Below, in pieces: positions 30,402-30,473 of a stretch of 32,000 nucleotides of DNA. The translations under genes were made by a program, and so were the position numbers. This DNA is from Promethearchaeota archaeon. Lineage in GTDB: Archaea; Asgardarchaeota; Lokiarchaeia; Sigyniarchaeales; Promethearchaeaceae. Under the pieces are notes generated by a model. It made no database searches. It was not told the DNA's origin and saw nothing but the letters and a program-made list of their open reading frames with translations. Location: assembly GCA_016933055.1 (NCBI GenBank), contig JAFGBS010000004.1:240001-272000 (forward strand), read 5' to 3'. Position 1 is the stretch's first letter. The number at the start of each line of letters is the position of its first letter.

Positions 30402-30473
30402 GTTCCAATGATGAAATCAAGACGAACTGAGGGTTGCCCTACTCCATGATGACAGCGATCCACGCTGAGGAAC
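30402..30473 (+). ncRNA. Box C/D 2'-O-methylation guide sRNA
   Basis: Terminal stem GTTCC/GGAAC. Box C ATGATGA 30408-30414, 12-nt guide, box D' CTGA 30427-30430, box C' ATGATGA 30446-30452, 12-nt guide, box D CTGA 30465-30468. Confidence 0.92.

What the first reader, a model, noticed from the sequence alone, without database searches (positions are those of the whole stretch)
30402..30473. Unannotated, fully canonical box C/D guide sRNA behind a protein operon
All four boxes are perfect consensus and both guides are exactly 12 nt (AATCAAGACGAA; CAGCGATCCACG). The terminal k-turn has a 5-bp stem with a 3-nt AAU bulge, and the internal C'/D' motif can form GGGU/ACUC with a CAU bulge. It starts 4 nt after the wHTH stop and is followed by a T7 run at 30499-30505, so it is probably processed from the polycistronic mRNA, reminiscent of host-gene-encoded snoRNAs. 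Asgard guide RNAs are, to my knowledge, little described.
Basis: seen in the sequence. Interest (0 to 1): 0.68.

Follow-up and report, generated by a model that had tools for sequence, protein, structure and literature searches.

The report
Asgard guide RNA with swapped arms
This 72-base stretch is a genuine small guide RNA of a Loki-type Asgard archaeon that most likely directs sugar methylation of two nucleotides beside the ribosome's catalytic centre (G2251 and U2460); it is an ordinary kind of RNA, and belongs to an old family shared with Sulfolobus and other archaea, here with its two guide arms in swapped order.

Summary
Confirmed: a box C/D sRNA at 30402-30473 (+), the only strict four-box match in the 3.76-Mb genome. 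Single-copy orthologs occur in 106 of 116 genomes of the order, with compensatory changes in both stems. The D' guide pairs with 23S helix 89 (N+5 = U2460, E. coli numbering), the D guide with the P-loop (N+5 = G2251); both are the best rRNA sites and covary with each genome's 23S. Fibrillarin, Nop5 and L7Ae are encoded; no RlmB was found. The same target pair, in the opposite guide order, occurs in other Asgard families and Thermoproteota, including the sequenced Sulfolobus Sac-sR110, listed without target in 2015. The swap is confined to three families of this order. Here the P-loop duplex has a wobble and a mismatch next to the target, so G2251 methylation is uncertain. A conserved loop may add six pairs on helix 89. 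Processing from mRNA is plausible but is the archaeal norm, not a eukaryote-like trait: in 33 of 52 orthologs the RNA is inverted and trails another gene. This scan found the family before on other Asgard DNA. Expression and methylation are not shown.

The parts
30402..30473 (+). box C/D guide sRNA (predicted gene; mature ends not mapped)
30402..30406 (+). 5' arm of the terminal stem (pairs with 30469-30473)
   Evidence: 5 of 5 pairs show double-sided changes across 20 orthologs
30408..30414 (+). box C (AUGAUGA), terminal k-turn with box D
   Evidence: conserved in alignment A1
30415..30426 (+). D' guide; pairs with 23S helix 89, 2457-2465 (8 Watson-Crick + 1 G-U); A30422 (N+5) faces U2460 (G000 C6:152, minus strand)
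   Evidence: best site in own 23S+16S, -12.3 kcal/mol; covaries with 23S
30427..30430 (+). box D' (CUGA)
   Evidence: degenerate in most relatives
30431..30444 (+). internal stem-loop (30431-30434 with 30441-30444) closing the C'/D' k-turn
   Evidence: 96% of cells paired, 3 of 4 pairs with double-sided changes
30434..30439 (+). conserved loop element UUGCCC, candidate extra pairing with 23S 2464-2469
   Evidence: 6 of 6 pairs with own 23S; mostly (U/A)UGCUC in family f3, whose 23S has A at 2465; function inferred
30446..30452 (+). box C' (AUGAUGA)
30453..30464 (+). D guide; pairs with the 23S P-loop, 2248-2258 (9 Watson-Crick, U-G at -6, A-G mismatch at -7); C30460 (N+5) faces G2251 (G000 C6:363, minus strand)
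   Evidence: best rRNA site, about -16.5 kcal/mol; distal part follows this genome's own 23S variant
30465..30468 (+). box D (CUGA)
   Evidence: CUGA in 50 of 52 orthologs
30469..30473 (+). 3' arm of the terminal stem
30125..30397 (+). upstream winged-helix gene (90 aa, Pfam HTH_45), conserved neighbour and likely source of read-through transcription
30499..30505 (+). T7 run, candidate archaeal terminator for the wHTH-sRNA transcript
   Evidence: sequence; kept in the same-genus genome; function inferred

Best explanation
It is an archaeal dual-guide box C/D sRNA. L7Ae binds its two k-turns and recruits Nop5 and fibrillarin. The D' guide pairs with the 5' strand of 23S helix 89 and places U2460 for 2'-O-methylation; the D guide pairs with the P-loop and places G2251. 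The D'-C' loop probably adds pairing to 2464-2469. It is most likely released by trimming from a read-through transcript of the upstream gene. It belongs to a family that couples these two targets across Asgard archaea and Thermoproteota (including Sulfolobus Sac-sR110); the ancestor of families f1, f2 and f3 of this order swapped the two guides. Shown here by computation: anatomy, conservation, complementarity, covariation, presence of the proteins, distribution of the two guide orders. Inferred: expression, RNP assembly, methylation (U2460 about 0.8; G2251 in this lineage about 0.55), extra pairing (about 0.55), read-through origin (about 0.65), common descent of the two orders (about 0.8).
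For: Unique strict match. One copy in 52 of 61 and 106 of 116 relatives. Stem covariation. Both predicted sites rank first in the genome's own rRNA. Cognate guide-23S pairs are stronger than non-cognate ones, one genome per genus: helix 89 -11.9 vs -9.0, P-loop -18.6 vs -17.0 kcal/mol (kin are not independent, so the permutation p-values overstate). C2458 with guide G occurs in G000 and, separately, in G014; U2458 with guide A in the rest. Fibrillarin and Nop5 are adjacent on C6, L7Ae is on C17; the only SpoU hit is TrmJ-like, not RlmB. Swapped-order form: 78 of 151 Asgard genomes and none of the 28 from f1 and f3, present in f4, f31 and f32, 79 of 151 Thermoproteota. An unqueried C box precedes 36 of 37 archaeal but 0 of 39 bacterial pattern hits. 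One member matches RNA-seq-detected Sac-sR110 in coordinate and sequence.
Against: No transcript or methylation data for any Asgard member. The D guide here has a wobble and a mismatch right after N+5 and fails the usual nine-contiguous-pair rule (PMC6009581); positions -6 and -7 vary freely in this clade. The D' duplex is only 8+1 bp. In G009 the helix-89 site and in G013 the P-loop site did not rank first (the G013 D guide was mis-parsed in that run). The last roughly 280 nt of this genome's 23S and its 5S rRNA were not tested directly.
Confidence: 0.85

Rival explanations
1. The RNA is expressed and binds both rRNA regions, but in this lineage the D guide no longer directs G2251 methylation; it only tethers or chaperones the P-loop, and U2460 is the sole product.
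For: Guide positions -6/-7 read AU, AC, AA or UU in nine members of this clade while the flanks are kept. Here the D' half is the perfect one. Dennis et al. 2015 propose a chaperone role for guides with distant targets; these two targets are about 210 nt apart.
Against: The N+5 pair is Watson-Crick in every member. A U-G wobble at -6 or -7 is the family norm outside this order, including Sac-sR110. No RlmB was found to take over. This is a variant of the best explanation, not an alternative identity.
Confidence: 0.3
2. The sRNA has its own promoter inside the end of the wHTH gene and is not processed from the operon mRNA.
For: A T-rich TATA-like stretch lies at 30370-30378, about 25-30 nt before the stem. 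The RNA survives inversion and, in G003, relocation.
Against: TATA-like motifs show no fixed position across 48 distinct upstream regions, and the stretch is coding sequence in a 35% GC genome. After inversion the RNA again trails a same-strand gene.
Confidence: 0.3
3. The D guide was retargeted in this lineage to another RNA, such as the intron of pre-tRNA-Leu(UAA).
For: A 9-bp match with one G-U in that intron scores like the P-loop in the ungapped scan (-15.0 vs -14.9).
Against: The intron match is not kept in G002, which has the same guide core. The two changed guide bases are not conserved in the clade. The distal guide follows this genome's own P-loop flank.
Confidence: 0.04
4. The two guide orders arose independently by convergence on two favoured rRNA sites, not by permutation of one gene.
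For: Both sites are separately targeted by unrelated sRNAs in thermophiles (alignment G2520 and U2734 in PMC4644070). The two forms do not share gene neighbours.
Against: The forms are mutually exclusive in all genomes tested, each single-copy. The P-loop guide GUCGCCCCA of f1/f3 is the same as in the unswapped form of f4 and f32 and nearly so in f31, but differs from the version in more distant lineages.
Confidence: 0.15

Closest known systems
Sulfolobus acidocaldarius Sac-sR110 (Dennis et al. 2015, PMC4644070, Additional file 1)
   Same: Dual-guide C/D sRNA whose guides are complementary to the same two 23S regions with the same N+5 positions; found by my model R2 at the published coordinate 490870, minus strand; 5636 RNA-seq reads.
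   Different: Guide order is opposite (D' to G2251, D to U2460); short k-loop instead of a stem-loop; listed there with no predicted target.
Archaeal sRNAs predicted to hit one of the two sites: sR7 and Methanopyrus sR13/sR45 (G2520 = G2251); sR17 and sR132 (U2734 = U2460), PMC4644070
   Same: Same target nucleotides, same box architecture and N+5 rule.
   Different: Each pairs the site with a different second target; none of the entries I read couples G2251 with U2460.
Eukaryotic C/D snoRNAs for the G2251 equivalent (yeast Gm2619, human Gm4196, Arabidopsis Gm2620 in PMC11542601; snR67 and SNORD31 from my own knowledge)
   Same: RNA-guided methylation of the same P-loop guanosine, which E. coli methylates with the protein RlmB.
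   Different: No evidence of homology beyond the shared target; to my knowledge their second guides do not target the U2460 equivalent; asymmetric Nop56/Nop58 particle; no introns here.
Yeast snoRNAs with extra base-pairing in the D'-C' loop (snR70, snR75, snR76; van Nues et al. 2011, PMC3116282)
   Same: A conserved loop between D' and C' complementary to rRNA next to the target, partly overlapping the guide site.
   Different: There it was tested (up to five-fold stimulation); here it rests on conservation and one compensatory change.

Membership tests
archaeal box C/D sRNA | C, D', C', D boxes in order with 10-13 nt guides | tested here: met
archaeal box C/D sRNA | two k-turn/k-loop motifs with flanking stems | tested here: met
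   sequence geometry and covariation
archaeal box C/D sRNA | guide complementary to rRNA or tRNA with a Watson-Crick pair at N+5 | tested here: met
   both guides; best sites in own rRNA; covariation
archaeal box C/D sRNA | at least nine contiguous Watson-Crick pairs (usual prediction rule) | tested here: not met
   D' guide 8 + 1 G-U; D guide interrupted at -6/-7. This is a prediction threshold that PMC6009581 relaxes for conserved families, not a defining trait
archaeal box C/D sRNA | L7Ae, Nop5 and fibrillarin encoded in the genome | tested here: met
archaeal box C/D sRNA | discrete transcript bound by the core proteins; target methylated | not testable with these tools
   only the distant member Sac-sR110 has RNA-seq support
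Sac-sR110-like family (G2251 + U2460) | both guides with the same N+5 targets, single copy | tested here: met
Sac-sR110-like family (G2251 + U2460) | guide order D' to G2251 and D to U2460 | tested here: not met
   order is swapped in f1, f2, f3; model R2 finds nothing in G000. Filed as a permuted relative, descent inferred
any Rfam sR/snoRNA family | score above the family's gathering threshold | tested here: not met
   best 21.1 bits vs 40 (sR22); none for the swapped-order members
host-gene (intron)-encoded snoRNA | located within an intron of a host gene and released by splicing | tested here: not met
   intergenic, after the stop codon; orientation and upstream gene change between lineages

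The most novel reading that the evidence does not exclude
One guide RNA coupling G2251 and U2460 predates the split of Asgard archaea and Thermoproteota, was circularly permuted once within this Lokiarchaeia order, and gained a loop that reads helix 89 in two parts. It would be an unusually old archaeal guide family and a candidate forerunner of the eukaryotic snoRNA for the P-loop guanosine, directly testable in Sulfolobus through sR110.
Probability: 0.4. Interest if true: 0.62.

Novelty: new member of a known kind. Interest (0 to 1): 0.42.

Why it matters
The mechanism is textbook. The value lies in the family. Reviews describe archaeal guide sequences as fast-evolving, with under two-thirds of targets conserved within one genus (PMC7994747), yet this target pair is kept on one RNA across two phyla. 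It gives targets to a sequenced Sulfolobus sRNA listed without any in 2015, suggests that Asgard archaea methylate the P-loop guanosine with a guide RNA as eukaryotes do, and offers a clean case of guide swapping placed on a species tree. Orthologs lie in two single-contig genomes whose size and rRNA copy number fit, from my own knowledge, the cultured Promethearchaeum syntrophicum and Ca. Lokiarchaeum ossiferum, so it can be tested.

Tried and rejected
Perfect 12-nt or 11-nt targets in rRNA or tRNA: none. tRNA targets: only the tRNA-Leu intron match, not conserved. 16S targets: at most 6 contiguous pairs. 23S of the closest relatives G001, G002, G007 and G003 is not assembled, so covariation inside this clade could not be tested. 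A relaxed genome-wide C/D scan gave 11 candidates against 5-10 in shuffles, so it says nothing on the size of the repertoire, and it misses this RNA's own D guide. The sigma-70 promoter scan does not apply to archaea. Model R1 alone suggested the family stops at the order; this was wrong, because the guide order differs outside. Nanoarchaeota: 1 of 101, and in that genome the helix-89 site was not scored cleanly; treated as sporadic. Not every R2 match holds both guides: at least 47 of 55 inspected did, 5 clearly had one, so the 78 and 79 counts slightly overstate. Euryarchaeal phyla were not searched with R2. The D guide of genus g6 was mis-parsed and corrected. The S. islandicus ribose-methylation study cited in PMC11077068 is not held and may already assign these targets; the S. 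acidocaldarius ribosome paper lists no methylations.

Full report
Observation. The element is as described. Boxes C (30408-30414), D' (30427-30430), C' (30446-30452) and D (30465-30468) are consensus, both guides are 12 nt, and both stems and bulges are present. It starts 4 nt after the stop of a 90-aa winged-helix gene and a T7 run follows at 30499-30505. The strict four-box pattern occurs once in the 3.76-Mb genome and never in 10 shuffled copies. Rfam gives only sub-threshold matches to archaeal sR families.

Organism. The phylum is Asgard: a same-phylum genome, G088, has a contig of the same length and content as a named Borrarchaeota record. Two same-family single-contig genomes (4.4 Mb with two 23S copies, 6.0 Mb with three) fit Promethearchaeum syntrophicum and Ca. 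Lokiarchaeum ossiferum from my own knowledge, so Lokiarchaeia is inferred.

Conservation. A C/D RNA lies next to the wHTH homolog in relatives. A covariance model (R1) finds one copy in 52 of 61 relatives and 106 of 116 genomes of the order. The five f3 genomes lacking it in the first set also lack the wHTH match, which points to assembly gaps. Both stems covary: 93% of cells paired, 8 of 9 pairs with double-sided changes, against 29-46% paired for slid controls.

Targets. In the genome's own 23S the D' guide pairs with helix 89 positions 2457-2465 (8 Watson-Crick, 1 G-U), N+5 facing U2460. The D guide pairs with P-loop positions 2248-2258 (9 Watson-Crick, U-G at -6, A-G mismatch at -7), N+5 facing G2251. 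Each is the best site in 23S plus 16S. Guides follow the rRNA across genera. C2458 goes with guide G in G000 and in G014 of another family, U2458 with A elsewhere; the distal D guide matches this genome's own P-loop flank. Cognate pairs beat non-cognate ones (helix 89 -11.9 vs -9.0; P-loop -18.6 vs -17.0 kcal/mol), though related genomes are not independent. Fibrillarin, Nop5 and L7Ae are encoded. The only SpoU-family hit is TrmJ-like (132 bits vs 50 for RlmB). G2251 is methylated by RlmB in E. coli, and the equivalents are yeast Gm2619, human Gm4196 and Arabidopsis Gm2620, the last by a C/D snoRNP (PMC11542601).

The weak point. In this clade guide positions -6/-7 read AU, AC, AA or UU in nine sequences while their flanks are kept. 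This argues against retargeting and for an interrupted duplex on the P-loop. Whether G2251 is still methylated here is open. A U-G wobble at -6 or -7 is the norm in the wider family, so some imperfection is tolerated.

A third pairing element. The D'-C' loop carries UUGCCC (30434-30439), complementary to 23S 2464-2469 of this genome. All 37 f3 orthologs parsed carry a related hexamer, mostly UUGCUC, and f3 23S has A at 2465; one genus turns the G-U pair into A-U. Genera g3-g8 lack the element. This resembles the extra pairing shown for yeast snoRNAs (PMC3116282). It rests on one compensatory change and is an inference.

Wider family. A weak R1 hit in G088 proved to be a C/D RNA with the same two targets in the opposite order. 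Pattern scans found this form in Jordarchaeia, Heimdallarchaeota, Borrarchaeota, Bathyarchaeia, Nitrososphaerota, Thermoproteales MAGs and one Nanoarchaeota genome. A C box, not part of the query, precedes 36 of 37 archaeal and 0 of 39 bacterial hits. Model R2 finds one copy in 78 of 151 Asgard genomes, none in the 28 from f1 and f3, and in 79 of 151 Thermoproteota; at least 47 of 55 inspected hits hold both guides. Family f4 of the same order and f31 and f32 of the same class have the unswapped form, with the same or nearly the same P-loop guide as f1/f3. The simplest reading is one swap in the ancestor of f1, f2 and f3; no tree was built. Such rearrangements are described for archaeal sRNAs (PMC4644070). 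One R2 hit matches Sulfolobus acidocaldarius Sac-sR110 in coordinate and sequence; it has 5636 reads and no predicted target in that paper. Both sites are separately predicted targets of other thermophile sRNAs there (G2520 = G2251; U2734 = U2460 by column count).

Transcription. Of 52 orthologs, 18 lie sense behind wHTH, 33 are inverted and mostly trail a convergent DUF2095 gene, and one is relocated. A same-strand stop lies -4 to 162 nt before the C box in 51, and TATA-like motifs have no fixed position. This favours read-through and trimming, which is the common archaeal route (PMC7994747). It needs no host-gene analogy, and the link to this particular operon is loose. An own promoter is not excluded.

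Verdict. A real, well-supported archaeal methylation guide: a new member of a known kind. What lifts it above routine is the old G2251 + U2460 family, the lineage-limited guide swap and the candidate loop pairing. Earlier reports of this scan reached the same family and the Sac-sR110 link on other Asgard DNA; I read them after my own tests. I found no paper on Asgard C/D guides, but the S. islandicus methylation map was not available.

Noticed in passing
G000 C6:59829-59919, minus strand (L126, L135): Second C/D-like candidate with a long internal hairpin; its D guide pairs over 8 bp with 23S around C2510. No ortholog found by blastn in the family.
   Followed up: partly
G000 C17:766886-767026 (L125): tRNA-Leu(UAA) with an apparent intron in the D-arm region; relatives G002 and G011 have an insertion at the same place, all containing UGGGUC.
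   Followed up: partly
L034-L040, L053-L072 (23S of relatives): All relatives read have G at 23S position 2448 (GGUAAC) where this genome and E. coli have A (GAUAAC), next to the catalytic A2451.
   Followed up: no
window 28405-30958: Gene run of a 425-aa and a 147-aa protein with no family above cut-off, the wHTH gene and a roadblock/LC7 gene; the 425-aa and wHTH genes stay together in many relatives, the roadblock gene only in the closest ones.
   Followed up: partly
L019, L029 (G028, G050): The wHTH match lies at the end of 475-489 aa open frames, suggesting fusion with the upstream gene in these genomes.
   Followed up: no
L411, L412, L413, L420, L431: C/D RNAs that keep only one of the two guides with a different partner guide, showing re-pairing of guide modules in some lineages.
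   Followed up: partly
window 21575-21650 (-) and 24712-24786 (+): Two tRNA genes found by Rfam that default ARAGORN settings on the genome did not list.
   Followed up: no
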